Both the position numbers and the translations under genes were made by a program. 64,000 nucleotides of DNA from assembly GCA_000004985.1 (NCBI GenBank), contig GG738873.1. One strand, 5' to 3'. Below, in pieces: positions 37,101 to 64,000 of the stretch; the stretch's first letter is position 1; every line of letters starts with the position of its first letter. The notes beneath the pieces are model-generated. The model saw nothing but the letters and a program-made list of their open reading frames with translations, was not told the DNA's origin and made no database searches. Source of the DNA: Naegleria gruberi. Lineage: Eukaryota.

Positions 37101-37981
37101 AAAATAAACTGATCTGTTGACAAATAAGATGTATCTGACAATTGTAACCAAAAACTCAATGTAAAGTTATTTTTCAGTTCAATAAATGGTGTTCTATCTA
37201 GAAGGATGTAGCTTTGGTCGGTTAAACCAAATTTGAAAGATCTTCCTTTTTTTACCACGTTAGACTCCAAATCAATACCATTTGATGCTAGTTGGAGTGG
37301 TTTGGTTTTTTCTCTAACGAACTGAACTCCTCCAATATTGGTAAGGTTGTCAAAATTAAAATACATTTCATAATCAGCATCTACATCATAGCTGATATCG
37401 TCTTGTAATTCTGTACATTGAGGATTGCTAAGTATTTCACTTGTTGTTGAACAAATAGGTGATTGGTAAGAGTATTGAGATGTCCCTAAAGTTGCGATTA
37501 CGCTTGAACTAGAGGAAGACAAAGGGCAATTGCCTAGTAAATCTTTTTGGCAAGTACTTGCAGTCGATTGCAGAAGAGACTCACAAAACACACCTGAAAA
37601 GCCAGGATTGCACTGACAAATTTCAGGACCAATACAAACACCATTGCCACTGCAAACACCGGGAGCACCTTCAGACATTCCACCACATACAATAGTTTCG
37701 CAATTTGTATTGGCGAAGCCTGGGGAACAACTACATAAATCTTCACCAATACAAACACCGTTACCGGAGCAGGCATTAACAAGATCCGATGAATGAACAC
37801 CAAAACAACTGAAGGAGCTAACTTGGCATGTACAATAAATCAAGAAAAGAAAGACTATAAATACAAATCTTATTGCACAAATATTTCTAGTAGATAAAAA
37901 GCGGAATAGATGTGGTGTTGTTGGGCAAAGATCATCACCCTTGGCACCACAACAAAAACCTGTATTCCTCATATCATTCAT
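19158..37981 (-). CDS. Giant extracellular adhesion-type protein. It has a signal peptide and dozens of EGF-like modules alternating with ConA/LamG-like modules of about 200 aa. About 6,270 codons are resolved in one uninterrupted exon upstream of the gap, and the gene continues through the gap to 16788.
   Basis: ORF track 17519..38071 (minus) is open for 20 kb. The probable start ATG is at 37981 (MNDMRNTGFCCGAKGDDLCP..). The signal-anchor/signal peptide is ICAIRFVFIVFLFLIYCTCQVSS. Dozens of C-x-S/N-G-x-G-x-C...C-x-C-x-x-G(F/Y)-x-G-x-x-C modules are present, for example CSGNGVCIGPEICQCNPGFSGVFCE and CSGHGQCDGLNNCTCDFGYSGSNC. Interspersed non-Cys modules of about 180-220 aa carry F..SFWL.. and ..Y(I/V)(D/N)G.. 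motifs typical of ConA-like/LamG/pentraxin folds. NxS/T sequons are very dense. No stop occurs for 18.8 kb, so no intron is needed. Confidence 0.75.
21050..21820. repeat. Recent tandem duplication (unit about 543 bp, about 226 bp near-identical) inside the giant CDS, duplicating a pair of EGF-like modules
   Basis: ORF-track plus-strand antisense ORFs 21044..21364 and 21566..21838 contain an identical 77-aa run (IITGTAIGTISNIVDNTSPVLTIISKVVCFTFTSIIANTF..NIWCNTF). On the coding strand this is the repeated segment CGRIG(E/K)CIAPDVCEYYHCFGVESNETDVCSSRGKCIGNNTCECETNYFGNNCQNWTCIVNNITDCSNRGSCDYANHC. Confidence 0.8.
27560..28040. repeat. Coding minisatellite (21-63-nt units) inside the giant CDS encoding an array of N-glycosylation sequons
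   Basis: DNA units such as gtaaagttactaattgtaatgttatcact repeat many times. The translation (minus strand) is ..NFTYTNLTISNFTNSNFTSDNITIGNYTYTNSTSSNFTNTNLTSDNITIGNFTNSNFTSDNITIGNFTYTNLTIRNLTSDNITISNFTISNFTSNNITIGNFTYNNYT.. Confidence 0.8.
28131..32100. repeat. Four tandem repeat units of about 1.26-1.31 kb inside the giant CDS, each encoding one LamG-like + 3xEGF-like module. Cores of about 210 bp are near-identical between units.
   Basis: Core sequence caaaaatcaggcttggtacaattaccatttccactgcaaacaagtggatcttctgatttaacaccaaaacaaattggtaaagaacaatttgatccataatatcc.. recurs at about 28131, 29394, 30704 and 31981. The protein-level repeat is CNGIYLTSP(K/Q)ACNSNGKCYGN..CREGYYGSNCSLPICFGVKSEDPLVC(S/N)GNGNC. 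More diverged units flank the array at about 26.3 kb and 33.1 kb. Confidence 0.8.
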
Positions 37982-38141
37982 TTTTTGTTGTGAAGGAAGC
38001 AAAGTTTGCAAACAACAGCTTGATTTACGCCGTAAATAAACTGTAGAGATACAGTAAACCTGTACAGCCACAGTAAAAGGGGTAACACCAGAGTGATTTA
38101 TTACATACAGAAAGAAAATACATCAAGCGTGTTCCGGTAGA
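37982..38141. promoter_or_regulatory. Short (160 bp) divergent intergenic region between the ATG of the giant gene (minus) and the ATG of paralog A (plus); putative bidirectional promoter with a TACAG motif cluster
   Basis: Start codons lie at 37981 (minus) and 38142 (plus). The element ctgtagagatacagtaaacctgtacagccacagtaaaagg at 38041-38080 contains three TACAG copies. Confidence 0.45.
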
Positions 38142-40976
38142 ATGGCAAGAAACAATTTTTTTATTGCAATACTGGCTGTTTTTATTTTAGGATTAATTAC
38201 AGGTAGGTAGTAAAATCAACAAGAAGATGTAACACGGACTAGTTAATCTTTGTACCAATATTGTTAATGCTCAGGATGAAAATTCAGCAACAACAGAACA
38301 AGTGCAAAACCTTAAAGCTCAAAAACTTCTTCAAAATGATTTTTTAGAAGTGTTGAGCGTATTGCAAAAGCAGCAATCTGACCTCTCAGACGCAAACACC
38401 AAGAAGAAGCTGTTGGATACAAAGGAAGCTATTGAAATTTCTGGTCCATACCTGGCTGCTCTCAACATTACCTCGGATCAATTTACAACCATGCTAGCCA
38501 ATAAGCAAACTCAATTGCAAAGTGTAATGAGCTTGGAATTGGAGTTGAAGAATTTGATATCATTGACCCAAAACTCTGCTAATATTGTTGGTGATAACAT
38601 CAAAAATTTTGTAGCTGTAAGTATTAATTGTTTGTCTTTTATATTTAACATTAGCAGTTGTTCACAAAAAAAGCCTACACTGTGGATCAGTATCAAAATA
38701 CAACAAAAGAGGTACATAGATATGATCTTAATATTACCCAAGTTGATGCAATTGTTCCAAACTATCTAACTGCTTACCCAGTGAGAAGAATTAGAAATCG
38801 TATTTCAGTCGGTTTTCAACACGTGTTAGTACTAAACCAAAATGGGAAGTTGTACTCTACAGGTATTCCTTCTTATGGAAATCTGGGAAGAACCAACACT
38901 GATTCAAGAATGTTATATAACTTGCCTGTTCAAGGATTGGATGGTCTTGATATCCTTCAATTTGATGCCAATTATTACTCAAACCTTGTTTTAACCAATG
39001 ATGGAGTTTATTCATTTGGGTTGAATGACAAATCACAGATGGGAACTGGAGATAGAAATGACAGATATGTCGCTGGAAAGGTTTACGGATTTGGTGGACA
39101 AAATATTGTTCAAATAGCCATGGGACGCCAAGCATCCTATGCCATTGATTCCAACGGCAAGTTATGGGCCTGGGGTGACAATACCATGTACGGTCAATTG
39201 GGAGACAGAACCTTTTCTGAAAAGAATCGTCCTTTCCCAGTTTACAGCTATGGCGCTATTAACAGCACGGCTGTGGTTAGGGTTTGTGGGGGTGGTTACT
39301 TTGCTCTTGCCTTACTTGCAAATGGAAATATGGTTTCGTTTGGTGATAATTCATATGGACAGCTAGGTGTTAATAACCCATTAATTTCAAAATCGGGAGA
39401 ACCATTGTTGGTGGTTAAACCTTCAGAACTAGCCTCAAAGACAATTGTTGACATTCAATGTGGTTATGATTATGCAATGGCCCTTACATCATCAGGTGAT
39501 GTATATACTTGGGGAAACAACAATTACGGCCAATTGGGTGATGGAAGTTCTGGAGGTAAATCCCCAATTCCACAAAAGATCACAATTTCTGGCTGTACAG
39601 TATCCCAAATCCACACAAAATACCAAAGCTCATTTGCTTTGTGTACAAGCAACGAACTGTATTCATGGGGAATGAACTCTGTTGGCCAACTTGGAAGAAC
39701 TAGTAACCAAATACCAACAACTACCCCAACCAGAGTTGATCCTTCGTCGTTCTTGTCCAGCACTGATGACTATTTGGGCTTCCCCAAAATTATTGAGATA
39801 TCCTCCAATTTTAACAACATGTTCCTTACCACATCTGATTTGAGTATTTATGGAACCGGATCATGTATTGATGGTTCTAAACAGCAATTTGCCTTCTTCT
39901 ACACTACAAGATCCAGTGATTATGGGGCTTGCACTAGTTCCAATATTTTCTCCTTGAATTCAATGTCAAAGATGCCAACTTTCTCTTCTATTAGTTATCC
40001 AGTATCCCTTAGAAAGGCCCAATATTTTGAGATTGGAACAAGAGCCTACCTCCTTCAAACAGATACAGTAGTTCCAACCAGACCTAATAATGGCTTTAAT
40101 ATGTATTATAAGCAATTTGCTGATCCAGAAAACTCTTGGTCTATTATCGAACGAAATGAAGCCACCAACGCAGGTTTTCCTGTATCAATTTACAACAGCC
40201 ACTTCCTTAAAGCTGATGAATATGTCTACTTCTTTGGTGGTTTCATCAATGACGAAGTTTCAAATAAGATTTACAGGGCTCCAATTTATGATGTTGAATC
40301 TGGATGGGAACTCTGTAATTTTACTCTACCATATTCTGTTGCAAGTGGTATGACAACAGTTATTAATGGATACATTTATATTTTTGGTGGTATAACCAAG
40401 ATCTATTCCTACAATGGCGGTGAACTTCCAACTCTTTCTCCAACAGTTACAAACCAAATAATTAGAGCCCCAATTAATAATTTGACAAATTGGATGGTTG
40501 TTTCAGGAAAGGTATTGCCATCCGCTATACACAGTGCTTCCATTACAATTATTGACAAGTATGTCTATTTATTTGGAGGTTCCCCATCTTATTACTCTTC
40601 CAGCCAAGAAGTTTACAGAGCTTTGATTACTGATCCTTCATCTTGGGAAATGACTTTTGGTTTACTTCCATTCTTTGTAACAAATGGTGCTTTTATCTCA
40701 ACTGGTAATGAATTGTTAATGGTTGGAGGCACAGCTTCTGGCAGTTTAGTGAATGGAGGATTTATGGCGATTTCAAAGAAGTCACAATTTGACCCAGTCG
40801 GCTCATGGATGGCTAGTGATGTATTCTTACCTTCAAATGCTGCCCAATCTCTCATTACAGTGATTAGAAACGACACAGTATTGCTCTACGGAACTGAATT
40901 GCACCGTAGTACTTCTTACACTCCCCACTCACCAAAAATTGGAAGAGTTTTGAAGCTTGCACTCGATCTGTACTAA
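38142..40976 (+). CDS. Paralog A: secreted protein with coiled-coil + RCC1-like beta-propeller + Kelch-like beta-propeller; 3 exons, 918 aa
   Basis: Exon 1 is 38142..38202 and encodes MARNNFFIAILAVFILGLITG. Intron 1 is 38203..38242 (40 nt, GTAGGT..CTAG, phase 1). Exon 2 is 38243..38616. Intron 2 is 38617..38654 (38 nt, GTAAGT..TTAG). Exon 3 is 38655..40976. The frames of ORFs 38302..38769 and 38658..40976 join exactly. The predicted signal peptide cleaves near ..IVNA|QDEN. About seven RCC1-like blades carry G.N..GQLG motifs, for example YGNLGRT, GLNDKSQMG, GDNTMYGQLGD, GDNSYGQLG, GNNNYGQLGDG and GMNSVGQLG. The Kelch-like repeats are YVYFFGG, YIYIFGG and YVYLFGG. Confidence 0.8.
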
Positions 40977-41451: not shown

Positions 41452-44363
41452 TTAATTTTGGGAAATTACAATAGTTGATATATGAGAGTGTAATCCTTCC
41501 ACTGTTGTGATAATGGATGAAGTTGAATTTGCAGCTGCTGTAATTACTGATACAATGTAACCAACAAGCGGTAACTTTAAATCAATAACTATCCATTTTG
41601 AAGGATCATTTTTAAAACAAGCTAATACATTAGTTGAATTTCCTTCATAATCCTTTCCTCCCCAGATGAAATAATTATCGTTATCACTTGAAATTTTAGC
41701 TTCCACTCTGCTGTATGGAAGAACTTCATATAAATTCTTCCATTTCCAGTCTGCGAGTGATGCTACATGTATATCACCCACAGATTGAACTCTGTTCACT
41801 CTTCCTCCAAAGAAGTACATAGTTTTATCAATTATCTCAATAAATACATTGTAAACCGATCTTGGTAAAACTTGGTTCACAACTTCCCACAACAGCACAT
41901 TGCTAATTTTTGCTCTCATAATCTTTGCTGTTGGTACTCCTTTTGCAATCATTCCACCAAATATATAGACATATTCCTCAATCATTTTAAGTACACCATT
42001 AGCAACTGGATATGGTAATGTTTCATTATAGATTGTAACTTGGTTAAAAGATTGCTTTGAAATAATTCTATTTGAAAAGGTGCCATTCACAATACCCCCA
42101 AAATAAAAAGTCAATCCATCAAATGCAAGTTGGTGAGTGCTAAAGAATGACTTGGCAAAAAACTTTGGGTCAATTGAAAAATTGAAAGTGGGGCTAGAAA
42201 AATAAAAGGAACTAGCTAAAATGACAGAGCTAGAGTTGGAGCTTGACAACGACTTAGTGTAAATTGGTATTTTTGTGAAACTAACTAAATCAAAACCAGT
42301 ATTAGGAATTGGATGATCCATAACTATCACTCTCTTCTCTTCATCTTCATATATTGGAAGAGTTCTTTCTTCTACTGGAAAATAATTAAAAGATCCCATC
42401 ATCATTACACCTGCCATGTAATTTTGCTCATTAATGAACCCACTTGGAAAAGGTGTCACTTTAAAATAACCACCAACCATAATGCCAATTTGCCCATTAT
42501 AGGAATAAACTACTAGAGAAGAATCAGTAGATATTTGAACATCCAATAAATCTTCATATGCTGTTTCGTGAATTTGTACAAATCTTGGTTGCCTAATATC
42601 TCCACAACAAGGAACTTCGTACGATACTGACTTGATGCAAGCTGCTGGTTTTTCACAAGTGCTAATTGTATAACCAACAAATACAGGGTGAGCAGAAACA
42701 GAACAAGTGCCTGAAGACAACAATTGGCTTATTTCTGCTGCTCTCTCTGGAAGAATTCCACTCTCATATAGCCTATTTTCACCAGTAAATACGATATCCA
42801 CATTATGGGCAGGAGCCCACTCTTCACAAGCATGTTCAATGCAAATGGCTGTCAGTACTCCAGTTGCACACTGACACTTTTTCTTAGTGTTAACTCCCCA
42901 AGAAACCACTCTATTGTCAGTGGTAATGGCGTTCACAAGACCACCTCTGTGTCCAATTTTTTCAAATTTAACATCTCCAATGAACTGCCTACTAACTGGA
43001 ACGGGGGAGGGTGATGATGTTTCATCATCAGTTCCAACACAAGGATCATACCTTCCCCAAGCATAAATATTTCCATTTGACAACAAAGCTACAGTTGTTT
43101 CAGTTCCACATTGAATATCTTTTACAAAAACTCCTTCAATCCAGTCTGGAAAGCTGCTCCTAGAGATTGGTGTTGGTGATACACTGGATGCAGATCCCTA
43201 AAAGAAAACAGTAATTAATAATATGTCAAATATTGTACTCACCCAAGTATAAATGTTACCATCATAACCAATTCCAAAGGCATCTTTATCTTGTAAGCAC
43301 ACTTTTTCCATTCTAATATTTGAATTCATTCTTGTTGGCTTTTCAACATTGATATTGTCATTGTTTCCAATTATTGGGCCACCTATTCCCCATATAAAAA
43401 CGTACCCAGAATTATCTATAGCTACTGAATTAATTGCTGCATTCATGTATGCAAAAGTGTTATCATGATAAAGTATTGTAAGTGGTAAGGAAATAAATTT
43501 GTTTGTTCCTGAAGGAGGAGGTATGCCCAATCTTCCATCTGAGTTTTCTCCCTTTCAAAAATTTAGATAGATATAAAATATTGACAACCTACCCAACCAA
43601 TGATTCGTTTGTTGGTCAACACCATTGCATGAACTTTTCCACATACTAGTTGTTTGATGAATTCTCCATCTACAAGTCCTAAATTAACAGCAGCTGGTTC
43701 TATAGTTGGTGGTGAGCCCGGTCTTCCAAGAGGAACAGTCAGACTATATTCATATCCAAATGACATAAGCTGCCCACTTGAAAGATCAATGTACATTCCA
43801 TACTGATCTCCAAGGCATATGAATGTTCTTTCAGAAATAAATTTTCCACGTACTTCTCTTGAAATGCTGACTTTGTTCTTTCGTATGGATGTAGAGTTCA
43901 TTTTCTCCCTTGCAAAATAAGGGGATTTAAAGGCTTCTTGCAATGTTGTTAGGTTTTTTACAAATCGTTGTTCTATACTGTTCCACTTTTCTTGAGCAAT
44001 TTTGTTCATGCACTTTGTTTCCTTCAGCGAATGGAAAAAGGATTGCCTCCTTTGCAAAGTTTGCTTAAATGCATACATGTTTCTATTATTTGTTTCTCCC
44101 AAACTAATTATTTTCATTTCATGATCAACTTGTTTCAATTGAGCTTCTACTTCATTAATATATTCAAACATTGTTCCATTTAATTGATTAACTTTCTCTC
44201 TGTGGGCTTTTGCATTCATTAGGGCTTCAAGATAGATCTCCGAAGACATTTTGGTGTTTGTTGTTAGTGTTGCATTCATTACATTTGTTGAGTTGAGAGC
44301 CACAACTTGCAAACAACATCCCACAGTCAGGAAAAACAAAAGAACAACACTCCAACCACCCAT
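41452..44363 (-). CDS. Paralog F: secreted coiled-coil + degenerate RCC1-like + Kelch-like protein; 3 exons, 941 aa
   Basis: Exons on the minus strand are 44363..43593, 43551..43243 and 43197..41452. The introns are 43592..43552 (41 nt, GTAGGT..GAAAG) and 43242..43198 (45 nt, GTGAGT..TTTTAG), both phase 0. Frames join exactly across ORFs 43563..44363, 43198..43530 and 41452..43086. The signal peptide MGGWSVVLLFFLTVGCCLQVVALNST lies in the first exon with no intron after it. The coiled-coil region is ..NQLNGTMFEYINEVEAQLKQV... RCC1-like motifs are degenerate: GENSDGRLG, GYVFIWGIGG, DGNIYTWG, NGNIYAWG and DNRVVSWG. The Kelch-like repeats are LTFYFGG, YVYIFGG, TMYFFGG and YFIWGG. Confidence 0.75.
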
Positions 44364-52652: not shown

Positions 52653-55600
52653 CTAAAAAACCATGTCACAATATACTTTAATTGGTATTGTTGTTCCATT
52701 ATTTAGAATACTATAGAAACCACCACCAATCAAACCTTGATAAACACGAGAGGTGTTAGTTGGATTTTTGTAGGAAGAGCAAGAATCAGCAACAGTTCCA
52801 TCAGCATAGTGTCTCCCATTACTGTAATCCACTATTCCTATTAATTGACATCTGTCACCAAATCTACCATGACTACATTGACATTCATCATTACCAACGC
52901 AAATACCAGCTGAAGAGCAGACACTTGGATTAGTAGCCTCGTAATATTGTGGACCAGTATACCCTGTAACATTACTGAAACCAAAATCTGGGTTAGAACA
53001 TTGATAGCACAACAATGGATACTTAGTGCACCAATCAAAATGGGTCAACTCTATATTTGTATCAGGAATAGCAGTCCATGATCCTATAATATCACTCTTC
53101 TTACCAAAGGCAAAGTAAGGTCCAGTTGAACTAGTGGATGAGTTTGTACCACCAAAAATATATAACTTATCTTCTGTTGAGGAAAATGGACCGGTATTAG
53201 TAATGAAATAAGGAAGGAGACCGAAGGTCATCTCCCAAACAGTTGGAGATTGTAATTTTGCTCTAAAGATATTAATACCACTTCCTCGTACTGTTGAGCT
53301 GCCACCAAACAAGTAGACATAATTATCAACCACTTCGATAAAAGCAGAATGCAGAGGAAGGGGAATAACATCTTGTACAATCTCCCATTTTGTTATGCTT
53401 GTTGTTGAAGCTCGCATTATACAATTGGTTACATTGTGTTTCATTGTTGGAGCAATATCTGCAGTTGCATTGAACTCATAGATGGAAATGATACCACCAA
53501 AAATGTAAACATAATCTCCTACTGCCATAAGCATACCAGATGCTATTGGGATTGGAAGTTTTTCGTTAATTAATTCCCATGATTGAAACAAATCATAGAC
53601 AGGTGCTCTGTAAATTCTATTTGAAATATCATCATCCACAACACCTCCAAACAAATAGACATATTCACCATGTTTAAGGACGTGTGTATTATAAATAGAG
53701 TGAGGAAAACCAGTGTTGGTAGTTTCATTATACTCAATCATATTCCATACCATGTCATTTGCTGTAACGTTTGTGGTGTACATATTGAACCCGTTATTTC
53801 TTCTTGTTGGAAGAGTGTTCTCTGTTTGAAGTAAATATGCAATATCACCCATTTCGAAATAAACTGGTTTTCTCTGATACCAGTATAATTGCATGTTGGT
53901 TTGGTGTCGTACTTGAGTGAAAAGTCCGTTAATAGAGAAAGCAAACTTCTTTGTTTGAACGGTTTCAAAGCAATCTTGTCCAAGGAAAAACTGGGTATTA
54001 AAACAGCCACCTGTGGCATGAATGGATCCATCAGCAAGAAAAAGGAAGGAATTATAAACATTGGAAGTAATATCTACAATTGGGTGAGCTGAGTATTTTA
54101 CAAGTTTGGGCGATAGAATTTTTAATCCATAAGAAAGTCCAGCACCTGTTTGCCCAATATCATTCAATCCCCAAGAATAAAAATACCCTGGTTTAGATGC
54201 ACAAACAGCAAAACTCACATGACCTTTTGTGTGGATCTTGGTTACGGTGCAGTTAATACCAGAAATCAAAGTTGGTATTGGTATGTTTGTTGTGTTACCA
54301 GTTCCAACTTGTCCATACATATTACCACCAAAAGCAAAAACTTTACCACTGGCTGTAAGGACAAGGTTATGAAACATACCACATTGAATATCTTTGATTG
54401 TCTCATTTTGGAATGGTTTCATCTTTACAACAACAGGCTCACCACTTGAAACGTAATCACCAGTACCCAATTGACCGTATGTGTTGTCTCCAATTGCTAC
54501 CAGATTACCTGTTGATGTTAAAGCAAGTACACTACCATTTCCAGCACAAACTCTAACAACTGTTTGATTTGCTAAAGCTCCGTATCTATAAACAGAGAAT
54601 GGTCTATTCTTTTCATCCCAAGTTCTGTCACCAATTTGACCTTGATCATTAGCTCCCCATGCCCACAATTTTCCATTTTCATCTATCGCATACGAAGCAT
54701 AATTACCCATAGCAATTTGAACTATTTTAGTGTCAAAGTTAAAACCATGAACTTTTGTTGCTTTCAACACAGATTTAGTTCCACCAGTTGCTAATTGTGA
54801 ACGATCATTTAAACCAAAAACATAGAGACCATTCGTAGTCAACACCATGCTGCTATTTCTCTGAGCTTCAATTTGAAGAATTTCTAATTCGTCAAGAACT
54901 TCAACAGGGTTATTGTAGAGGAGTCTAGAATCCTGACTTGTTCTTCCCAAATTTCCATTATTGTAGACACCAGTCGAGTATAATTTACCATTAGGCATTA
55001 GTACAAGTACGTGATTTGCACCTGCAACAATTCTGTTTCTCACTCTGACAATAGAAGAATGATATTCATAGGAAGGAAAAATACCTGGTCTAGAGTTGAA
55101 ATACATTTGGTGGTTCATTGAAAAGTTCAAAGTGTTTTGTCTGAATAATAATTCCTCTCCATAGATAGCTTCGGTGAAGTTCTTTACAAAACTAAATTGT
55201 CGATGCTCAAAATAAACTTACATTAATCATATTAAAACTATTCTCTCCCAATATTCTTTGTGAGTTATCAGCCAAGGTAATGACATTTAGTAATTCCACC
55301 TCCATGCTCAATGCTCTTTTCCAGTCCTTTTTCTTTGATGTGACCATTTGATCAAACATTGTTTGATTAACTCCCAAGTCATCCAATATCATTGAAGCTC
55401 CATCAAGTGCTTCTTGCATATTCACTAGCTTTTGCATTATCTTTGAGGAGTAAAAATCTTCCTTTTGCTTTTCGAGTCCAACCAGAACTCTATTGTAACT
55501 ATTTTGTTTTTCTTTCCATCCTTTTACAAGTTCAACAGCATGTTGTTGTTGATCATTTGAGGCATCAAATGTATGTACACTCAATGTGAAGCAAATTATT

Positions 55601-55701
55601 ACTATGAAAAATTTATAGTAAGCGGAAATATACAACCTACAAAAAGCTACACACACACATTGCAATTTAGACCGCAAACCAGCGTTGAGGGTCTTCATCA
55701 T
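52653..55701 (-). CDS. Paralog B: secreted coiled-coil + RCC1-like + Kelch-like protein with an extra C-terminal EGF-like module and a truncated fibrinogen-like start; 3 exons, 989 aa
   Basis: Exons on the minus strand are 55701..55641 (MMKTLNAGLRSKLQCVCVAF), 55601..55222 and 55181..52653. Intron 1 is 55640..55602 (39 nt, GTAGGT..CATAG, phase 1). Intron 2 is 55221..55182 (40 nt, GTAAGT..TGTAAAG, phase 0); an alternative acceptor 27 nt downstream is also in frame. RCC1-like motifs are YNNGNLGRT, GLNDRSQLATG, GANDQGQIGD, GDNTYGQLGTG, GGNMYGQVGTG and GLNDIGQTG. Kelch-like repeats are YVYLFGG, YVYIFGG, YVYLFGG and LYIFGG. The C-terminal segment reads CSSAGICVGNDECQCSHGRFGDRCQ, then ..RVYQGLIGGGFYSILNNGTTIPIKVYCDMVF and stop. 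Confidence 0.75.
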
Positions 55702-56077
55702 TCGTTTTTTTTCTGAGTTGTGCACCGCAAATCACTGTAATTTCTGTGTTAAGGCTGTATTCACAGTAAGACTTTCAAAAACCTTAACTAGAAGTTATTT
55801 GGAGAATATTAGAAGAAGATTGTGCATAATGTATCTCCCAAATGTGCTCAACATTTTTTTTGGTTTCAAGCCAATCATAAGGGACGATTGAGCAGCAATA
55901 AACTTTTCATTTCTGCACGAAAATGAGATGATAATTGCCTACAGATTTATTAATCAAGATCTGTTTCTAAGTTGAATAGTCCACAATAAAATTCAAAACA
56001 TTTCAAAGAATAAAGTCCCTATCATTTTCATTATTCTCATTCAATACTCTATATTATCATTAAACTACTAGTACAAT

Positions 56078-58846
56078 TTATTTATTTTCAAATGGTTGAG
56101 TTAATAATGGTATGGTACACAATGTGTGAGTCTTGTTGCTCATTAACCTGGTGAAGATTCTCTTGATATCAGTGCCGTAGAGATAAAGATTATTACCAGA
56201 GAAGGTTGGAGTGAAAGAAGAAACAGAAGGGATAACATCTCCCGAAACAGTCCATGAACCAACTGGGTCACTTGTTGGAGTGTAAACAACTCTGTAATTG
56301 AAATCATTCAGAGATCTTGAATGTCCTTTGCTTGGATAACCACCAAATATGAAAATGTAATCTCCTGTTACCACCATTGGCCCATCAGAGTAGGTAAATG
56401 GCAATACAGAGAAGGTATTTTCCCACAGATAGGGGAAAATATATCTAGCTCTCAAAATATCAGAGTAGGCTTCTTGAGATGGTGATCTACCCCCAAAAAT
56501 ATAGATATAATCACCGATCATGGCTATGTTACCACCATACACAGGTTGTGGGAGTTTTTTAGAGACTATTTCAAAGTTGTAAGGTGCATTGATAGGGGCA
56601 CGAATTATCATGTCAGTAACATTATTAATTGAAATGTCAAAGTTCAAGATGCCACCATAAATGTAGATGTAATCGTCTACAACCAATGACATACCAGAAG
56701 CAACTGCATATGGTAAGGTATTTTTCATCAACTCCCACCCATTCTCTATATCACTGACAGGAGCACGATAAATCTTATTGCTGAGGGTTCCATTCACCAC
56801 ACCACCATAAAAATAAATATATTCTTGAGCTCTGGCTATATGCGTGTTATAAATGGTACCAGGGAAGGTTCTTTTTGTCTTGTTTTGGTAATTCACAAGA
56901 TCCCAAGTCATAGGGTCACTCAAGTTTCTATAATACAACTGGAAGCCATTATCCACAAGTGGATAATACTTATCACCAACAAACTGATAGGCCTTATCAT
57001 CAGTTTCAAAATATGGGTAATGTCTTCTTTCAAGAGTAAAGCCAGTGGTGTTGTCAAAGGTAAAAACTTTTCTAAAATTGGATGTTACAGGTTCAAAAAC
57101 GTCAAACAATTGTCTTTCGGTTTGGGAGGAATATCCAGCACCTACAAACGCTCCATCGGTTGTCAAGCCAACAGCCGACCTGTACATCATTGTTATTTCA
57201 GTAATTTTGTGGTTGTATAATTCATCATTGGAGAGAGGAATAACTTCTGTTGCCACATTCATAAGAGCAGAAAGACCACCTGTGTGACCTAATTGCCCAT
57301 TAGAATTATCACCCCAAGAGAACCACTTTCCATCGTTACAAAGTACAAAGGAATTTCTAAACTTGGAATAGAGGGCAACAATAGATCTGCCAGCACCAAT
57401 ACCAGCCATTTCAATTGGTGTAGGGACAGTGAGGTATGGTGAATTGATACCTGTTCCACACTGACCTTTGTCATTTTTTCCCCAAGCAAAAACTTTTCCT
57501 GATTCTGTCAATACAGTTGTAAAATCATCACCACACTTCAAATCAACAACTATCTCTCCTGCAAAGCTTTCTGGTAAATTTACAGCAACAGCTTCCATTT
57601 TATATTCAGCGGAGGAGGCGCTTCCAATACCTAGTTGACCGTATGTGTTGTCGCCAAATGAATACAGACTATTATTTGAGGTTAAGACAGCAGTGTGTGA
57701 CAAACCACCACAAACCTTAACAATGTACTGATTGGCTAGAGCACCATCCATGTATACATCAACCGGTCTCACCTTTGTCACAGTTGTTTTATCACCAAGT
57801 TGGCCTCTATGATTTCTTCCCCAGGCATATAACTTGCCGTTTTCCTTAATGGCATAGAAAGTAAAAGCACCAGCAGCAATTTGCTCAACATCTTGAGGAC
57901 CTTGCAAGTCCCAAGAGAATAATTTGAATGGTACTTTTTTGTGAACGGCAACGGTTCCATCACCAACTTCGCCATAGTCATTTCTTCCCCAAGTGTAAAC
58001 AGCATCACCAGCCAAGAGAATGTTACTATAGTACGAAGAATCGAATTGAAGAATTGTAAGATTGACATTTGTAGAATAGTTTGGCAACTCAACTGGTGTA
58101 CTAAGTGTTGGAACATATCCTGTGCCCATAGTAGTTCCTAATCTACCCAAACATCCATCACATTCAACACCCCAGGAATAAAGTTTTCCATTGCCATGAA
58201 GATAAAGTCCATGGTCTCTTCCAGCTGATAGCCTATTTCTTTCACGCACAACCTTCTTAAAGGTTGCATAGTTTGGCAGATACCCATATGTAAGATTAAA
58301 ATGCAACGGAACAGGAATTGTACTAATGTTAGTATTGGTCCACTTAGAAGGATCATTCAAATAGTTCAAGGAATCTATTACCAGATCTTTCAAGGAACTA
58401 TATGTTGTATTAAAACCTTGATTGGTGAGAGCAATGAGACTGTCAAGTTCTTTTTCAACAGAAACAACATTCTCATATTGGGTAACCTTATTTTTAAGAA
58501 TTGCTTCGTATTGGTCTTGAGGGATACCAAAATCAGATATAAATTCTTTCGAGTACTTTACAGCTTCACTAATAACAGTGATTTTTTCTTTAATATTTGC
58601 TTTGACCATGTCTGCTTTTTGTTGTAAATAATCTTGATTAACAGCATAATAACTATCTCTTCTTTCTCTAAGACTAGCAATATTATAGTAAGCTTCATCT
58701 AACGGGAGTTGCTCTGATAATACTTGATTGATTACTGTTATATTAAGCATTGTAAATAATCATTTAATATTAATAAATAGAAACATCAACCTACCCGAAG
58801 CAACAAGCAATAGTAACACAACCACAATTGTGGCATTCAGCTTCAT
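56078..58846 (-). CDS. Paralog C: secreted coiled-coil + RCC1-like + Kelch-like protein; 2 exons, 902 aa
   Basis: Exon 1 is 58846..58795 and encodes MKLNATIVVVLLLLVASG. The intron is 58794..58735 (60 nt, GTAGGT..AACAG, phase 1). Exon 2 is 58734..56078 and is in frame with ORF 56078..58750. RCC1-like motifs are GVECDGCLGRLG, GRNDYGEVGDG, GRNHRGQLGD, GDNTYGQLGIG, GKNDKGQCGTG and GDNSNGQLG. Kelch-like repeats are YIYFYGG, YIYIYGG, YIYIFGG and YIFIFGG. Confidence 0.8.
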
Positions 58847-59018
58847 TTTGTGATGTAGCGGGAGATGTGATGGGTGTTGTTTTTTTAAAAGTAGTTGCAG
58901 TTTGCTGCTGTAAGCACTCGCCCAAATCAGCTTAAATACAGCTGTGTACAGTACAGTCGTAATGAAATTACCACTACGAATTATTTTATCGCTTAATACA
59001 GCAGAAAAAAACATCACA
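58847..59018. promoter_or_regulatory. About 172-bp divergent intergenic region shared by paralogs C (minus) and D (plus); putative bidirectional promoter with a TACAG motif cluster
   Basis: Start codons lie at 58846 (minus) and about 59019 (plus). The sequence aaatacagctgtgtacagtacagtcg at about 58935-58960 is followed by ttaatacagcag. Confidence 0.45.
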
Positions 59019-61799
59019 ATGAAAATCAAGCCATCCCCAAACACGCACATCAACAAACGGGTGGTTTTTTGCGTCCTCCTCGCTTTGCTAGGACTTGGTA
59101 AGTAGTGTGGAGGAATAATATGTTGACACGTTTAAAGTATTTGTAGTGGTCAAGGCTCAATCAGAACAATCTTTCAGTGAATATGTACTTTCCTTAATGT
59201 TCATGATTCAAAAAAGACAAAGTTTGATGGGAATTGAAACAGATTATTTAAGTGAAGCTGACAAAATTATCTACAAGGAGAAAATAATTTATAATACAAA
59301 ATATGCAATGGAAAGGTCTCTAGCCTCTATTAACAAGCTTGGTGTTAAAGAACAAACATATACCATACTTCTCTCAGCCAAACAAAACGAAGCAGCAGCC
59401 GCTTGGGACTCTCTTGTTGAAGTTAACAGTTATATCAATGTTACTAAGCATGCTGTTTCAGTTGCCTACTCAACCATTGATTCAATCAATGAGGTATGTT
59501 TTTTTACAATTTTTGTTGCTGAACCAGTTAGAAATTATCGAATGTACTTCTAAGCTACCACCATTGGCAAAAAACTGACCTCGATTTATTGCCAGCAAAC
59601 ATGACTCTCAATACTACAGTTGGTTATCTCCCAAATCATGTAATGTATTTCCCAGTTATGAGAATTAGAAATAGAATTTCTGCTGGATTAAATCATGGTT
59701 TGTTCCTTGGCCCTGGTGGTAATTTGTATTCTTGGGGTGTTGATATGGGTGGTTCTTTGGGAAGATCTGTTAACACACCAATGCCAAGTTTGGATTTGCC
59801 TGTAGAATTGAAGAACGTTACCATTCTTCAGTTCACTAACTCTTACTATGGAAATCTGTTGCTAGCTGATGATGCCGTCTATTCATGGGGAAAGAATGAC
59901 TATGGAGTTGATGCTGATGGTACAACTGTGAATCATTACCAACCAAGGAAGGTCTTTTCATGGGATTTACAAGGTCCTAAAGGAATCGCTCAGATTGCTT
60001 CTGGCCCATATAACTTTTATGCTATTGACGAAAATGGTAAACTCTATTCATGGGGAAAGAATGATTTTGGCCAACTTGGCGATAGAACTCCAATTGACAA
60101 ATGGAGACCTGTGGACGTTTTTATGAAGGGTGCTTTGCTTAATCAAACAGTTACCAGAGTTTGTGGTGGTTTGACTCATACTCTTGTCCTTGCCAACAAT
60201 GGAATGCTTTACTCTTTTGGTGATAACTCTAAAGGACAACTTGGTATCGGAGTTAGTTCCTCAGTTATTGCAAAGAAATGGGAACCTGTCCTCATCAATT
60301 TCCCATTCAATGACACAATTGCAGATATTCAATGTGGTGATAACCACAACCTGGTGCTCTTGACTGGAGGTGCCATGTATGCTTGGGGTCTTAACGACTA
60401 TGGGCAACTTGGAGATAATACCACAACAACAAGAACAAAACCAACCAAAGTCAACACACTCTCAGCTATTGGTACAAGAAAAGTTGTCAAGATTGAATCA
60501 AGACTCAACGAGAATTTTGCCTTCTTGGAAAATGGAGCCATGGTTTCATGGGGTCAAAATGATTATTCTCAATTAGGTCATTCCAAAATAGCAATTATAG
60601 GCAATATTGCCACCACCTTTATAAATGTTCCGGTAGAGTTTAGCTTACCCAATGGTTATATGCCTTCTGAAATAGCAATCATGAATGGATCAACTGTAAT
60701 TCTTGGTGCAAATGGCACCCTTTATGGTGCTGGATTTTCTTCAGAAAGTACCAGAAAACTGTTGAACATCACCACTTCCCAAACTAAGTTTACCCAGTGT
60801 TACACCTTCCCACCTATATACCCAGTTATGGAAAGAAGACATTATCCATATATCCAACTCAACGAAAAGAGCTATGCATTTATTGGATCCAAGTACTTTT
60901 CTTACCCTGATAATGGGTTTGATGGATACGTGAGGAATAACACCTCTCCAGAATTGTGGTCAATGATTGATTATCAAAATACAACATCACAGATGTTCCC
61001 TGGTTCCATTTACAATACTCATATTTTGAGAACTAACCAACATGTTTACTTCTATGGTGGTTTTGTTAATGGATCAATTTCAAACCTTATTTACAGAGCT
61101 CCAGTGGATAATATTGAAAATGGATGGGAAATTGTTAAGCCAACGCTCCCATTCCCAGTTTCAAACGGTATGTCCATTTTATTGGATGACTTTTTCTACA
61201 TATTTGGTGGCTTGACTTGGTTTAATAGCACAGACAAAGGATTCGTATCAATTGGTGTTTCATCAAGTATTTTGAGATGTCATGTTTCCAGTCCAACCCA
61301 ATGGGAAATAATGAGTGGTGGTGGGTTGCCAAGAGGTGTCTATAGTGGCAATATTGCAAGAATTGGAGATTTCGTCTATATTTTGGGTGGGCGAGTTAAC
61401 ACGGGTGATGCGTTTGCTGACATCTTCAGAGCTCCTTATTTGAATATTAGTCAATGGGAAAATACTTACTCAGTGCTTCCATTCCCTTTATCTGATAGCC
61501 CAATGATAATTACCAATAGTAGTATCTACCTCATGGGAGGATATTTGTCTGAGTACTCTCCAAATATTATTGGTACATACTATCCTCATATTATTACAGC
61601 TCCTCTAAGTGATCCAGTTGGTTCATGGTCTGTTACTGGAGACAAGCTCCCAACTAATCCAGCTTTTCAATCTGTTACTTCGCCAGTAGTTGTTGGATCG
61701 AATGTATATTTATACGGTAATGATGCCTCAAAGATAACAGAGACAAACATCAGAAGTACCACTGTCAGCTCATTCATTAAGATTCCTCTATTGGTTTAA
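59019..61799 (+). CDS. Paralog D: secreted coiled-coil + RCC1-like + Kelch-like protein; 3 exons, 897 aa
   Basis: Exon 1 is about 59019..59097 and encodes MKIKPSPNTHINKRVVFCVLLALLGL. Intron 1 is 59098..59146 (49 nt, GTAAGT..TTTGTAG, phase 1). Exon 2 is 59147..59493. Intron 2 is 59494..59531 (38 nt, GTATGT..CAGTTAG, phase 0). Exon 3 is 59532..61799. Frames join ORFs 59146..59553 and 59589..61799. RCC1-like motifs are GVDMGGSLGRS, GKNDYGVDADG, GKNDFGQLGD, GDNSKGQLGIG, GLNDYGQLGD and GQNDYSQLG. Kelch-like repeats are HVYFYGG, FFYIFGG, FVYILGG and IYLMGG. Confidence 0.75.
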
Positions 61800-61990
61800 T
61801 AAACAACCTTGTATAATAGTTATTTATTTTCTAAACATATCTCTTTAAAAAATTAGTTAACCTTATTCAACATTCAAACAAAAAAAATTGAGGTAAAAAA
61901 CCGTTTTAACATTTTGAACACTGTACCGTACAAAATTACAGCCATTGGCTGTAAAACACTGTATAAGGCTTTAAAAAAACATAAAAAAAA

Positions 61991-64000
61991 ATGATCTGGA
62001 GCAATACTCATGTAGAGGTTAGTCCAAAGAGCATTGGGCTTGCCGTGGTATTGTTATTTGTATCAATATCTTTTATTTGTAAGTTTCTCCAAGTAATAAT
62101 TGAAGCATATAGTCCATATAGGTGTTACTTCAAGTGCTCAAACAACCCAATACAATAGCACATTAACTTCAGAATTGTTTTACAAACTGTCATTTTACAG
62201 AGAAAGACGAGATAGTTTTTACCAGATTTACACAGACTACGTTCGTCAAAATCAAGAAATAGAAGAATCCAGAATTAAATTGAAAATTAATATTACAAAA
62301 GAGGCTGTAGAAGCTTCTTTTTATGAAATTACAAAATTAAGAATTCCAGTTGAACAATACTATCAAATGCTGAATAATAAGAATATACAATACGCAAACC
62401 TAGAAGAGGTTCAGAAGGAGCTTGATGACTTGATCACATTGACTGATCTTGGTTTCCTACACACCCAATCCACCCTAGATGATGTAGAAAAAGTAAGTCC
62501 TTCAGTTATTGGAAATGCTTATCGGTAATAGTCTGCTTCTAACATTTTGTACAATGAAGAAAAATGGCAATTGGCCAAAACAAGGAAGATAGTTTCCTCA
62601 ATGAACTTTACTACGACTGTTGGATTTCTTCCTAGTCATGCTAGATCTCACAAAATACCAAGAATTAGAAATAGAGTGTCTGCAGGAAAAAATCATGGTA
62701 TTCTTCTTCATTATAATGGACTACTCTATTCTTGGGGCGCTGACAATGGTGGTGCTTTAGGTAGACCAAATAGTGCAGGTGTCTCATCTTTTACTCTCTC
62801 TACCCCTGTTGAATTACCAAAGAATATTTCCATTCTTCAATTTGTTAGCTCAAACTATGCCAATTTGGTTCTTGCTGGAGATGCAGTTTATTCTTGGGGC
62901 AGAAATGAATACGGAGTTGTTGGTGATGGTACTTTTGGTGGAAATAAGCCACCATACAAGTTATTCTCTTGGGATTTGCAAGGTCCAAAAAGAATTGAGC
63001 AAATTGGAGCTGGAGGCTACACTTTTTATGTAATTGATGAAAATGGAAAAGCATATGCTTGGGGCAGAAACAATAGAGGCCAACTTGGAGACAAAACAAC
63101 CATTGACAAGCCAAGACCAGTTGACGTCTACATGAAAGGCATTTTACTCAATCAAACAGTCATTAGGGTTTGTGGTGGAGAAAGTCACACTTTGTTGTTG
63201 ACTAGTAATAATGAATTAGCGGCTATGGGTGACAACACTTATGGGCAATTAGGTGTGGGTACTTCTGGTGGATATAAAATGGAACCAACAAGAGTCAACA
63301 TCAAATTTAATGGTACTATTATGGACATACAGTGTGGTGAAAATTATAACCTTGTCTTAACTTCCAAAGGGTTGGTATACGGTTGGGGAAGGAACGATGT
63401 TGGTCAACTTGGAAGTGGAGACAAGCTAGACAAGTTGGAACCTACTCTTATTTCCTACCTTAAAAACAGCACAGTAGTCAAGATTTATGCCAGATTTTCG
63501 ACCTCATTTGCTCTTACCAATGAAAGTTTCTTATATGCTTGGGGTAATAACAATCAATACCAATTGGGTGCTAGTTCAGCCACCCTTTTTACAGTACCTC
63601 AAAATATAACACTCCCAGAATATGTGACTGTTGTTGACTTGGCTGTCATGCAAGGAACAACTGTATTTTTAGGAAATAATGGTACTTATTACGGTAGTGG
63701 TGGATCAACTAATGGAGAACTGCTCCGTATTTCATCACAACAACCAGCCTTCGACTGGATTTATAATGGATTGAGTTTTTATGGGTTTGCAATGGAAAGA
63801 AGAAGATATCCATATTTTGAAGTGGATGATATTGCCTACCAGTTTGTAGGGGACAATTTTGCAATCTTTCCAGATAATGGTTTTTACCTTTATAAGAGAA
63901 ATATTGCAGATCCAACAATGGGTTCGATTGTAGAATACAGAAACAATACTGGCAAATTCTTCCAAGGAACAATTTACAATTCTCATATGCTTAGACTAGG
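61991..64000 (+). CDS. Paralog E (3' end truncated by the window edge): secreted coiled-coil + RCC1-like + Kelch-like protein; at least 3 exons, more than 645 aa in the window
   Basis: Exon 1 is 61991..62078 and encodes MIWSNTHVEVSPKSIGLAVVLLFVSISFI. Intron 1 is 62079..62112 (34 nt, GTAAGT..CATATAG, phase 1). Exon 2 is 62113..62492, in the ORF 62100..62528 frame, and ends ..DDVEK|GTAAGT. Intron 2 is 62493..62531 (39 nt, ..GTAATAG). Exon 3 runs from 62532 and stays open to the window end. This frame is absent from the ORF track, presumably because it has no stop. RCC1-like motifs are GADNGGALGRP, GRNEYGVVGDG, GRNNRGQLGD, GDNTYGQLGVG, GRNDVGQLGSG and GNNNQYQLG. Confidence 0.7.

What the first reader, a model, noticed from the sequence alone, without database searches (positions are those of the whole stretch)
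55602..62112. Conserved phase-1 intron immediately after the signal-peptide h-region in paralogs A-E but not F
Paralogs A, B, C, D and E each have a tiny first exon of 52-88 nt that encodes only the signal peptide. Each ends in phase 1 with a GTAGGT or GTAAGT donor, followed by a 34-60-nt intron: 38203-38242, 55640-55602, 58794-58735, 59098-59146 and 62079-62112. Paralog F carries its signal peptide in one long first exon and has differently placed introns, with degenerate RCC1 motifs. This supports an older F lineage and a younger A-E expansion that preserved the intron position. It is also compatible with signal-peptide exon shuffling.
Basis: seen in the sequence. Interest (0 to 1): 0.5.

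Follow-up and report, generated by a model that had tools for sequence, protein, structure and literature searches.

The report
Inherited intron splitting a signal peptide
Five neighbouring Naegleria gruberi genes for secreted double-propeller proteins share a short intron inside their signal-peptide coding region; it is an ordinary ancestral intron kept through old gene duplications, not evidence of exon shuffling.

Summary
The window is Naegleria gruberi NEG-M (exact matches to XP_002676165/166/245/247). Paralogs A-E each begin with a 52-88-nt coding mini-exon, end in phase 1 at a GTAGGT or GTAAGT donor, and carry a 34-60-nt intron at the stated coordinates. The pattern occurs nowhere else in the window and in at most 0.1% of shuffles.

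The same phase-1 intron is in all 11 annotated N. fowleri and N. lovaniensis orthologues examined, and in three environmental Naegleria-like genes. A second, phase-0 intron sits at one identical alignment column in 15 of 16 genes; N. gruberi C has lost it.

Each of A-E pairs 1:1 with orthologues, so the duplications predate the split of these species. The intron is simply inherited.

F belongs to a separate deep clade with NAEGRDRAFT_73810 and N. fowleri FDP41_003733. F and FDP41_003733 lack the signal-peptide intron and share two phase-0 introns at the W|G of RCC1 blades.

Exon shuffling has no positive support. Exon 2 is phase 1-0 (asymmetric), and intron interiors are not conserved.

Corrections: the mini-exon does not hold the cleavage region; B's intron is 3n and stop-free; D and E have alternative in-frame acceptors. 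Low interest.

The parts
38142..38202 (+). Paralog A, coding exon 1 (MARNNFFIAILAVFILGLIT + 1 nt): n- and h-region of the signal peptide
38203..38242 (+). Paralog A, intron 1: 40 nt, phase 1, GTAGGT..TAG, in-frame stops
   Evidence: The N. fowleri and N. lovaniensis orthologues have a phase-1 intron here.
38243..40976 (+). Paralog A, exon 2, intron 2 and exon 3. Intron 2 is 38617-38654, phase 0; homology favours the CAG acceptor, giving 38617-38657. Exon 3 encodes the RCC1-like and Kelch propellers.
41455..44363 (-). Paralog F (NAEGRDRAFT_68500). Signal peptide in a 771-nt first exon. Phase-0 introns at 43592-43552 (41 nt) and 43242-43198 (45 nt), each between W and G of an RCC1 'WG' motif.
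   Evidence: Exact match to XP_002676247.1. Both intron positions shared with N. fowleri FDP41_003733.
55641..55701 (-). Paralog B, coding exon 1 (MMKTLNAGLRSKLQCVCVAF + 1 nt)
55602..55640 (-). Paralog B, intron 1: 39 nt, phase 1, GTAGGT..TAG. It is 3n and stop-free, and the h-region spans it.
   Evidence: Orthologues B1' and B2' have phase-1 introns of 138-177 nt.
52653..55601 (-). Paralog B, exon 2, intron 2 (55221-55182, 40 nt, phase 0, AAAG acceptor) and exon 3. Exon 3 encodes RCC1-like, Kelch, a Cys-rich stretch and a truncated fibrinogen-like start, ending VYCDMVF*.
58795..58846 (-). Paralog C, coding exon 1 (MKLNATIVVVLLLLVAS + 1 nt)
58735..58794 (-). Paralog C, intron 1: 60 nt, phase 1, GTAGGT..CAG, in-frame stop. 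It splits a GTA (Val) codon, as in the N. fowleri orthologue.
56078..58734 (-). Paralog C, exon 2: the whole rest of the gene. Intron 2 is absent.
59019..59097 (+). Paralog D, coding exon 1 (MKIKPSPNTHINKRVVFCVLLALLGL + 1 nt)
59098..59146 (+). Paralog D, intron 1: 49 nt, phase 1, GTAAGT..TAG, in-frame stop. An alternative in-frame acceptor lies at 59137.
   Evidence: Orthologues.
59147..61799 (+). Paralog D, exon 2, intron 2 (59494-59531, 38 nt, phase 0) and exon 3 (RCC1-like and Kelch)
61991..62078 (+). Paralog E, coding exon 1 (MIWSNTHVEVSPKSIGLAVVLLFVSISFI + 1 nt)
62079..62112 (+). Paralog E, intron 1: 34 nt, phase 1, GTAAGT..TAG. An alternative in-frame acceptor at 62121 would give 43 nt.
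   Evidence: The N. lovaniensis orthologue has a phase-1 intron.
62113..64000 (+). Paralog E, exon 2, intron 2 (62493-62531, 39 nt, phase 0) and exon 3, which runs off the window

Best explanation
These are ordinary U2-type spliceosomal introns that descend from one ancestral intron. That intron sat in phase 1, in the codon at the C-terminal end of the signal peptide's hydrophobic core. It was present in the founder of the A-E (+X) subfamily of Naegleria secreted proteins, whose architecture is signal peptide, helical region, RCC1-like propeller, Kelch propeller.

Tandem and dispersed duplications copied the founder before N. gruberi separated from the N. fowleri / N. lovaniensis lineage. Each copy kept the intron, plus a second phase-0 intron about 115-135 codons downstream. 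Only position and phase are conserved; length and internal sequence drift freely.

The rest of each roughly 2.7-kb gene has no introns. That is the 5'-biased intron retention usual in intron-poor genomes. It explains the 'tiny first exon' without any special role for the intron.

The F-type subfamily is a sister lineage with its own inherited introns and no signal-peptide intron.

Shown: coordinates, phase, frame joining, non-randomness, presence in orthologue gene models, phylogeny. Inferred: actual splicing in N. gruberi mRNA, cleavable signal peptides, and whether the intron was gained in the A-E stem or lost in the F stem.
For: - Source and models. The window is N. gruberi NEG-M. The F model equals the public protein.
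- The five introns and their phase are confirmed.
- The pattern is unique to these loci and reached by at most 0.1% of shuffles.
- Orthologues. Intron 1 is phase 1 and inside the signal peptide in N. fowleri A', B1', B2', C', D' and in N. lovaniensis A'', B1'', B2'', C'', D'', E''. The N. fowleri models came from BRAKER1 with RNA-seq (PMC6831594).
- Three further genes on environmental Naegleria-like contigs show the same intron.
- Intron 2 falls at one identical alignment column, phase 0, in 15 of 16 genes.
- Phylogeny. Every N. gruberi paralog pairs with its orthologue at 100% bootstrap.
- Position. In 9 of 11 genes tabulated (those in the family set with a mapped intron 1), intron 1 lies within 0-3 residues of the end of the h-region.
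- Typical size. Short GTAAGT/GTATGT introns of 41-45 nt occur in other annotated N. gruberi genes in the window.
- Intron interiors are not conserved.
- An excess of phase-1 introns near signal-peptide cleavage sites is a known pattern (PMC1626468).
Against: - No transcript data for N. gruberi were available, so splicing itself is inferred.
- My A, C and D models are not found as exact public proteins. The public N. gruberi models, if they exist, differ somewhere that I could not see.
- Signal peptides cannot be aligned reliably. 'Same position' for intron 1 therefore rests on phase and on its place relative to the h-region.
- In N. gruberi B and N. fowleri A' the intron sits earlier in the hydrophobic stretch.
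- B's intron is 3n and stop-free, so ORF logic cannot exclude read-through.
- The trees are neighbour-joining only, and the root is weakly supported.
Confidence: 0.85

Rival explanations
1. Signal-peptide exon shuffling. The mini-exon with its phase-1 boundary is a mobile module, recruited to or swapped between these genes and other secreted-protein genes.
For: A phase-1 boundary after a signal peptide is the class of junction that exon-shuffling models use (PMC1626468). I did not survey other secreted gene families in Naegleria.
Against: - The next intron is phase 0, so exon 2 is a 1-0 exon, not a symmetric module.
- The interiors of intron 1 show no significant similarity between paralogs or orthologues.
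- Gene trees are fully congruent with vertical descent, including the conserved C/D head-to-head pair.
- The neighbouring giant EGF gene and the F-type genes have no intron at their N-terminal hydrophobic segment.
Confidence: 0.04
2. Independent (parallel) gains of an intron at a favoured insertion site in the signal-peptide coding region of each paralog.
For: Proto-splice-site explanations exist for the phase-1 excess at signal peptides (Tordai and Patthy, as summarised in PMC1626468). The exact codon cannot be aligned between paralogs.
Against: - All 16 A-E-type genes in three species carry it, plus three environmental genes. One ancestral origin is far more parsimonious.
- The split codons are Val, Leu, Val, Val, Phe (G|TT, T|TA, G|TA, G|TG, T|TC). 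They are not the glycine G|G proto-splice sites of that model.
- The C orthologues split the same GTA codon.
Confidence: 0.05
3. Gene-model artefact. The mini-exons are not used, and translation starts elsewhere, or the 'intron' is read through.
For: B's intron 1 is 39 nt and stop-free, so an unspliced B still has an ORF. My A, C and D models were not found as exact public proteins.
Against: - In A, C and D retention meets an in-frame stop. In E it shifts the frame to a stop about 25 codons on.
- The first Met inside C's long exon is 41 codons in, and D's third exon starts 23 codons before its first Met.
- The pattern is statistically non-random.
- It recurs in RNA-seq-guided orthologue models.
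Confidence: 0.04
4. A regulated or functional intron. It would be kept because it boosts expression, or because retention or alternative acceptors switch between a cleavable signal peptide and a longer signal anchor.
For: The intron is strictly retained in all clade members, while intron 2 was lost once. B's stop-free 3n intron, and the alternative in-frame acceptors in D and E, would alter only the signal-peptide region.
Against: Intron length varies 34-177 nt and interiors are not conserved, so there is no sign of a conserved element. In A, C, D and E retention truncates the protein. There is no expression evidence.
Confidence: 0.05

Closest known systems
Excess of phase-1 introns near signal-peptide cleavage sites (Tordai and Patthy; Vibranovski et al.; Nielsen and Wernersson 2006, PMC1626468)
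   Same: A phase-1 intron lies within the signal-peptide coding region of secreted proteins, around codon 17-38. This is close to the 20-40 range reported for animals and plants.
   Different: Here the intron sits at the end of the hydrophobic core. By a crude -3/-1 rule that is about 4-11 codons before the likely cleavage site (A, B, D, E; C is ambiguous). It splits Val, Leu or Phe codons rather than glycine G|G sites. The organism is a heterolobosean protist, a group not covered by those surveys.
Conserved intron positions in paralogous and orthologous gene families (vertical inheritance of introns)
   Same: Same phase and same place in all members of a clade. Intron presence or absence maps onto the gene tree. 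There is one precise intron loss, intron 2 in C.
   Different: Nothing unusual. Only position and phase are conserved.
5'-biased intron distribution in intron-poor eukaryotes (Mourier and Jeffares, cited in PMC1626468; reverse-transcript-mediated 3' intron loss, from general knowledge)
   Same: Both introns of A-E lie in the first 500 nt or so of 2.7-kb genes, after a very short first coding exon. The propeller-coding 2.2 kb has no introns.
   Different: The F-type genes keep introns inside the RCC1 region, so the bias is not uniform across the family.
RCC1-like domain and Kelch beta-propeller proteins (Pfam PF25390/PF00415/PF13540 and PF24681/PF13964)
   Same: Strong RCC1-like domain hits (E 4e-66, 4e-62) and weaker Kelch-type hits in the C-terminal half.
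   Different: They have an N-terminal signal peptide and a helical region. The only full-length relatives listed (named or unnamed contigs) are Naegleria or Naegleria-like; other hits cover only the RCC1 part and are mostly bacterial.

Membership tests
U2-type GT-AG spliceosomal intron | Consensus 5' splice site (GTRRGT-like) and 3' AG | tested here: met
   GTAGGT three times, GTAAGT twice; TAG four times, CAG once.
U2-type GT-AG spliceosomal intron | Length within the range of accepted introns of the same genome | tested here: met
   These introns are 34-60 nt. Introns in exact public N. gruberi models in this window are 41, 42, 44, 45 and 193 nt. E's 34 nt is the shortest; an alternative acceptor gives 43 nt.
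U2-type GT-AG spliceosomal intron | Removal restores one long reading frame; retention disrupts it | tested here: met
   Met for A, C, D and E. B's intron is 3n and stop-free, so retention also keeps its ORF.
U2-type GT-AG spliceosomal intron | Absent from mature mRNA | not testable with these tools
   No N. gruberi transcript data were accessible. The N. fowleri orthologue models were RNA-seq guided.
Ancestrally conserved (orthologous) intron position | Same phase in all members | tested here: met
   Phase 1 in 16 of 16 A-E-type genes of three species, and in 3 environmental genes.
Ancestrally conserved (orthologous) intron position | Same alignment column | tested here: inconclusive
   Signal peptides do not align; the intron maps to columns 63-108. 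It lies within 0-3 residues of the h-region end in 9 of 11 tabulated genes. The C orthologues split the same GTA codon. For comparison, intron 2 falls at an identical column in 15 of 15 genes that have it.
Ancestrally conserved (orthologous) intron position | Distribution congruent with the gene tree | tested here: met
   Present throughout the (A,B,X)+(C,D,E) clades where structures are known. Absent from F and from FDP41_003733 in the F-type clade; the structure of NAEGRDRAFT_73810 is unknown. X (P0019) structure was not obtainable.
Secretory signal peptide | Short polar n-region, 11-22-residue hydrophobic core, small residues at -3/-1 soon after | tested here: met
   A heuristic scan finds all three in A-F and the orthologues. 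No dedicated predictor was available, and cleavage is not shown.
Exon-shuffling module | Symmetric phase class (1-1) of the shuffled exon | tested here: not met
   Intron 1 is phase 1 and intron 2 is phase 0, so exon 2 is a 1-0 exon.
Exon-shuffling module | Same exon found in otherwise unrelated genes | not tested
   No genome-wide search of Naegleria was possible. Among the paralogs, intron 1 interiors show no significant similarity.
RCC1-like / Kelch double-propeller protein | Significant Pfam RCC1-like domain and Kelch-type matches | tested here: met
   For D and B: PF25390 at E 4e-66 and 4e-62, above the gathering score. PF00415 and PF13540 are also above their cut-offs. The Kelch families are significant by E-value: PF13964 exceeds its cut-off in B only, and PF24681 is below cut-off in both.

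The most novel reading that the evidence does not exclude
The signal-peptide mini-exon with its phase-1 boundary could be one instance of a wider habit in Naegleria: secreted-protein genes acquiring or exchanging 5' signal-peptide exons. That would be exon shuffling operating in a heterolobosean protist. Alternatively, the intron could be kept under selection because alternative splicing (B's stop-free 3n intron, the alternative acceptors in D and E) toggles between a secreted and a membrane-anchored form. My evidence does not exclude either reading, because I could not survey other secreted gene families or any transcripts.
Probability: 0.05. Interest if true: 0.5.

Novelty: new member of a known kind. 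Interest (0 to 1): 0.17.

Why it matters
It matters little beyond annotation. The result gives clean, cross-species-supported 5' gene models for a Naegleria-restricted family of apparently secreted RCC1-like/Kelch proteins. My A, C and D models match no public protein exactly.

It also provides a tidy small example of intron inheritance in an intron-poor protist. The two subfamilies have mutually exclusive, conserved intron sets. One intron was lost precisely, in C. Orthologous introns shrank or grew 2-4-fold between species.

It adds a non-animal, non-plant case to the known association of phase-1 introns with signal peptides. It does not settle why that association exists.

Tried and rejected
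- Exact look-ups of my A (both acceptor variants), C and D models, and of ORF-only versions, found nothing. So I could not see how the public N. gruberi annotation treats the mini-exons.
- N. gruberi gene positions are not held by the contig look-up.
- The word-indexed protein search did not return proteins encoded in this window. Neither F's own cluster nor any N. gruberi copy of A-E or D appeared, although the exhaustive search did return F's cluster representative. It therefore could not show the N. gruberi models.
- For F, that first search found only six weak hits. The exhaustive HMMER search was needed to find F's relatives.
- N-glycosylation sequon counts were tried as independent support for secretion. 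They were not decisive: enriched in B and D, depleted in A.
- Rooting with bacterial RCC1 domains gave only 42% support for F being basal, so I do not claim a root.
- I looked for a signal-peptide intron in the neighbouring giant EGF gene and found none.
- The first Biopython bootstrap timed out. I replaced it with a vectorised neighbour-joining bootstrap.
- I initially noted that all five introns contain in-frame stops. Re-reading the frames showed that B does not.
Full report
**Source and setting**

The window is eukaryotic, about 35% G+C, with one assembly gap at 17536-19157. Three of its ORFs are letter-for-letter Naegleria gruberi NEG-M proteins: XP_002676166, XP_002676165 and XP_002676245, on a 461,873-bp scaffold.

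tblastn with the paralog proteins finds six related genes in the window and no more:
- A: 38142-40976, + strand
- F: 44363-41455, - strand
- B: 55701-52653, - strand
- C: 58846-56078, - strand
- D: 59019-61799, + strand
- E: 61991 to beyond 64000, + strand

Pfam shows an RCC1-like propeller followed by a Kelch-type propeller. Before these lie a hydrophobic N-terminus and a helical stretch of about 120 residues.

**The observation**

Donors are GTAGGT (A, B, C) or GTAAGT (D, E). Acceptors are TAG or CAG. Lengths are 40, 39, 60, 49 and 34 nt.

Walking upstream in the frame required for phase 1 finds an ATG that gives coding first exons of 61, 58 or 61, 52, 79 and 88 nt. Splicing joins each to the long downstream frame.

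I also placed the second introns. All are phase 0:
- A: 38617-38654. Homology favours the CAG three bases further on, giving 38617-38657.
- B: 55221-55182
- D: 59494-59531
- E: 62493-62531
- C: none

**Is it more than chance?**

I scanned for a strict pattern: ATG, a stop-free mini-ORF of 3k+1 nt with 8 of 10 hydrophobic residues, GTRRGT, then 30-70 nt ending in AG. It matches at 9 of 6765 AG sites over both strands of the window, and all nine lie at A, C, D or E. Dinucleotide shuffles of each upstream 300 nt match 0-3 times in 3000.

B misses the rule only because its hydrophobic core is split by the intron.

Short introns with these donors are normal here. Public N. gruberi models that I could map exactly have introns of 41, 42, 44, 45 and 193 nt.

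**Related sequences**

The nearest full-length proteins are from N. fowleri and N. lovaniensis, at 31-55% identity. I fetched their loci and mapped the annotated proteins back onto the DNA.

Every A-E-type gene has a phase-1 intron inside the signal-peptide region and a phase-0 intron at the end of the helical region:
- N. fowleri A', B1', B2', C', D'
- N. lovaniensis A'', B1'', B2'', C'', D'', E''

The N. fowleri models were made with BRAKER1 and RNA-seq (PMC6831594). Two environmental contigs from unsampled Naegleria-like organisms carry C-, D- and E-like genes with the same phase-1 mini-exon arrangement.

Intron 2 falls at a single alignment column in all 15 genes that have it. N. gruberi C reads straight through that point, which is a precise intron loss.

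Intron 1 cannot be placed by alignment, because signal peptides do not align. In 9 of the 11 genes tabulated it lies within 0-3 residues of the C-terminal end of the hydrophobic core. The C orthologues split the same GTA codon.

Orthologous introns are 2-4 times longer in the other species (73-177 nt). Their interiors share no significant similarity with the N. gruberi introns, and the paralogs' introns share none with each other.

**Phylogeny**

A neighbour-joining tree on 836-840 well-aligned columns, with 300 bootstraps, pairs each N. gruberi paralog with its orthologue at 100%. It resolves two clades, (C,D,E) and (A,B,X). The A-E duplications are therefore older than the split between N. 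gruberi and the N. fowleri / N. lovaniensis lineage.

**The F lineage**

F had almost no hits in the word-indexed search. An exhaustive HMMER search found its relatives: N. gruberi NAEGRDRAFT_73810, on another scaffold, and N. fowleri FDP41_003733. The three form a clade at 100% bootstrap. F and 73810 are sisters within it.

FDP41_003733 has no intron in its N-terminal hydrophobic region. Its introns 2 and 4 coincide in column and phase with F's two introns, each between the W and G of an RCC1 'WG' motif. My F model is identical to XP_002676247.1.

So the family has two anciently separated subfamilies with mutually exclusive, inherited intron sets. Where the root lies is not settled. With bacterial RCC1 outgroups, F is basal in the best tree but with only 42% support.

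**What it is and how it works**

This is an inherited spliceosomal intron. One phase-1 intron at the end of the signal peptide's hydrophobic core, and one phase-0 intron after the helical region, were present in the founder of the A-E subfamily. They were copied with the gene.

The long propeller-coding part has no introns. That fits the 5'-biased intron retention of intron-poor genomes; this last point rests on general knowledge, with Mourier and Jeffares as cited in PMC1626468.

The link between phase-1 introns and signal peptides is an old observation in animals and plants (PMC1626468). This case resembles it, with two differences. The intron lies several codons before the likely cleavage site. 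It also splits Val, Leu or Phe codons, not the glycine codons invoked by the proto-splice-site explanation.

The intron pattern does track phylogeny, and F does belong to a distinct deep lineage. 'Younger A-E expansion' is misleading, however. A-E are all older than the species split, while F itself may come from a later N. gruberi duplication.

Exon shuffling has no positive support. Exon 2 is a 1-0 exon. Intron 1 interiors are not similar between copies. Synteny, such as the C/D head-to-head pair conserved in all three species, together with the gene trees, fits plain vertical descent.

**Caveats**

- No N. gruberi transcripts could be consulted.
- B's intron is 3n and stop-free, so an unspliced B keeps its ORF but gains 13 residues inside the signal peptide.
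- D and E each have one alternative in-frame acceptor with the same donor.
- The claim that only these GT..AG pairs restore the frame is too strong, although each gene has only one consensus donor.
- My A, C and D proteins are not present as exact public sequences. The public models may therefore differ at the 5' end or at an acceptor.

**Verdict**

The explanation is ordinary: conserved ancestral introns in an old gene family. This is a new instance of a known kind, of low general interest, and useful mainly for gene-model curation.

Noticed in passing
window 19158-38071 (- strand), up to the gap at 17536-19157: One uninterrupted ORF of more than 6300 codons encodes Teneurin-type EGF and Laminin_G_3 repeats. 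It lies head-to-head with paralog A: its first ATG is near 37972 and A's ATG is at 38142. N. lovaniensis has an 8772-residue gene in the same position next to A''. Its N-terminal hydrophobic segment has no intron.
   Followed up: partly
window 56078-58734 (paralog C): C lacks the phase-0 intron 2 that the other 15 A-E-type genes in three species have at one identical alignment column. This is a clean, precise intron loss specific to N. gruberi C.
   Followed up: yes
window 52653-52900 (3' end of paralog B): B ends 'VYCDMVF*' just after the start of a fibrinogen-C-like domain. No continuation is visible downstream in any frame. N. fowleri B1' carries the complete Fibrinogen_C domain and B2' diverges at the same point.
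   Followed up: partly
window 38617-38657: A's intron 2 has a tandem TAG|CAG acceptor. Using the TAG adds one residue (Q) that no other family member has, so the CAG is probably the real acceptor.
   Followed up: partly
window 55602-55640; 59137; 62121: B's intron 1 is 39 nt and stop-free, so retention would insert 13 residues into the signal peptide. D and E each have one alternative in-frame acceptor with the same donor. Only transcripts can decide.
   Followed up: partly
window 41455-44363 (F); L006 6001-9764 (N. fowleri FDP41_003733): Both of F's introns fall between the W and G of RCC1 'WG' motifs in phase 0. They coincide with two of the four introns of the N. fowleri relative. That gene's first intron (phase 0) lies 8 alignment columns from the A-E intron 2 position and might be the same intron.
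   Followed up: partly
window 58847-59018; L002 9924-10000; L005 9911-10000: C and D are divergently transcribed from a 172-nt spacer. The same head-to-head pair, with 77-90-nt spacers, is conserved in N. fowleri and N. lovaniensis. In those species the A-B cluster, the C-D pair and (in N. lovaniensis) E lie on different contigs, whereas N. gruberi has all six within 26 kb.
   Followed up: partly
L001, L002, L003, L004, L005 versus window introns: Orthologous introns are 73-177 nt in N. fowleri and N. lovaniensis but 34-60 nt in N. gruberi. This looks like a systematic size difference between the species at identical positions.
   Followed up: no
L003 10001-14962 (N. lovaniensis C9374_014136): The annotated 1384-residue protein looks like a fusion of the E orthologue with a downstream GATA-type gene, joined through weak GTTTGG and GTTTGT donors. 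It is probably a mis-merged model.
   Followed up: no
Paralogs A-E, RCC1 region (e.g. window 59650-60700): Outside Naegleria, the best matches to the RCC1-like part are bacterial 'alpha-tubulin suppressor-like' RCC1 proteins at 30-37% identity, not eukaryotic RCC1 or HERC proteins. Several giant proteins (3000-7000 residues) of unnamed origin match both the RCC1 and Kelch parts of F.
   Followed up: no
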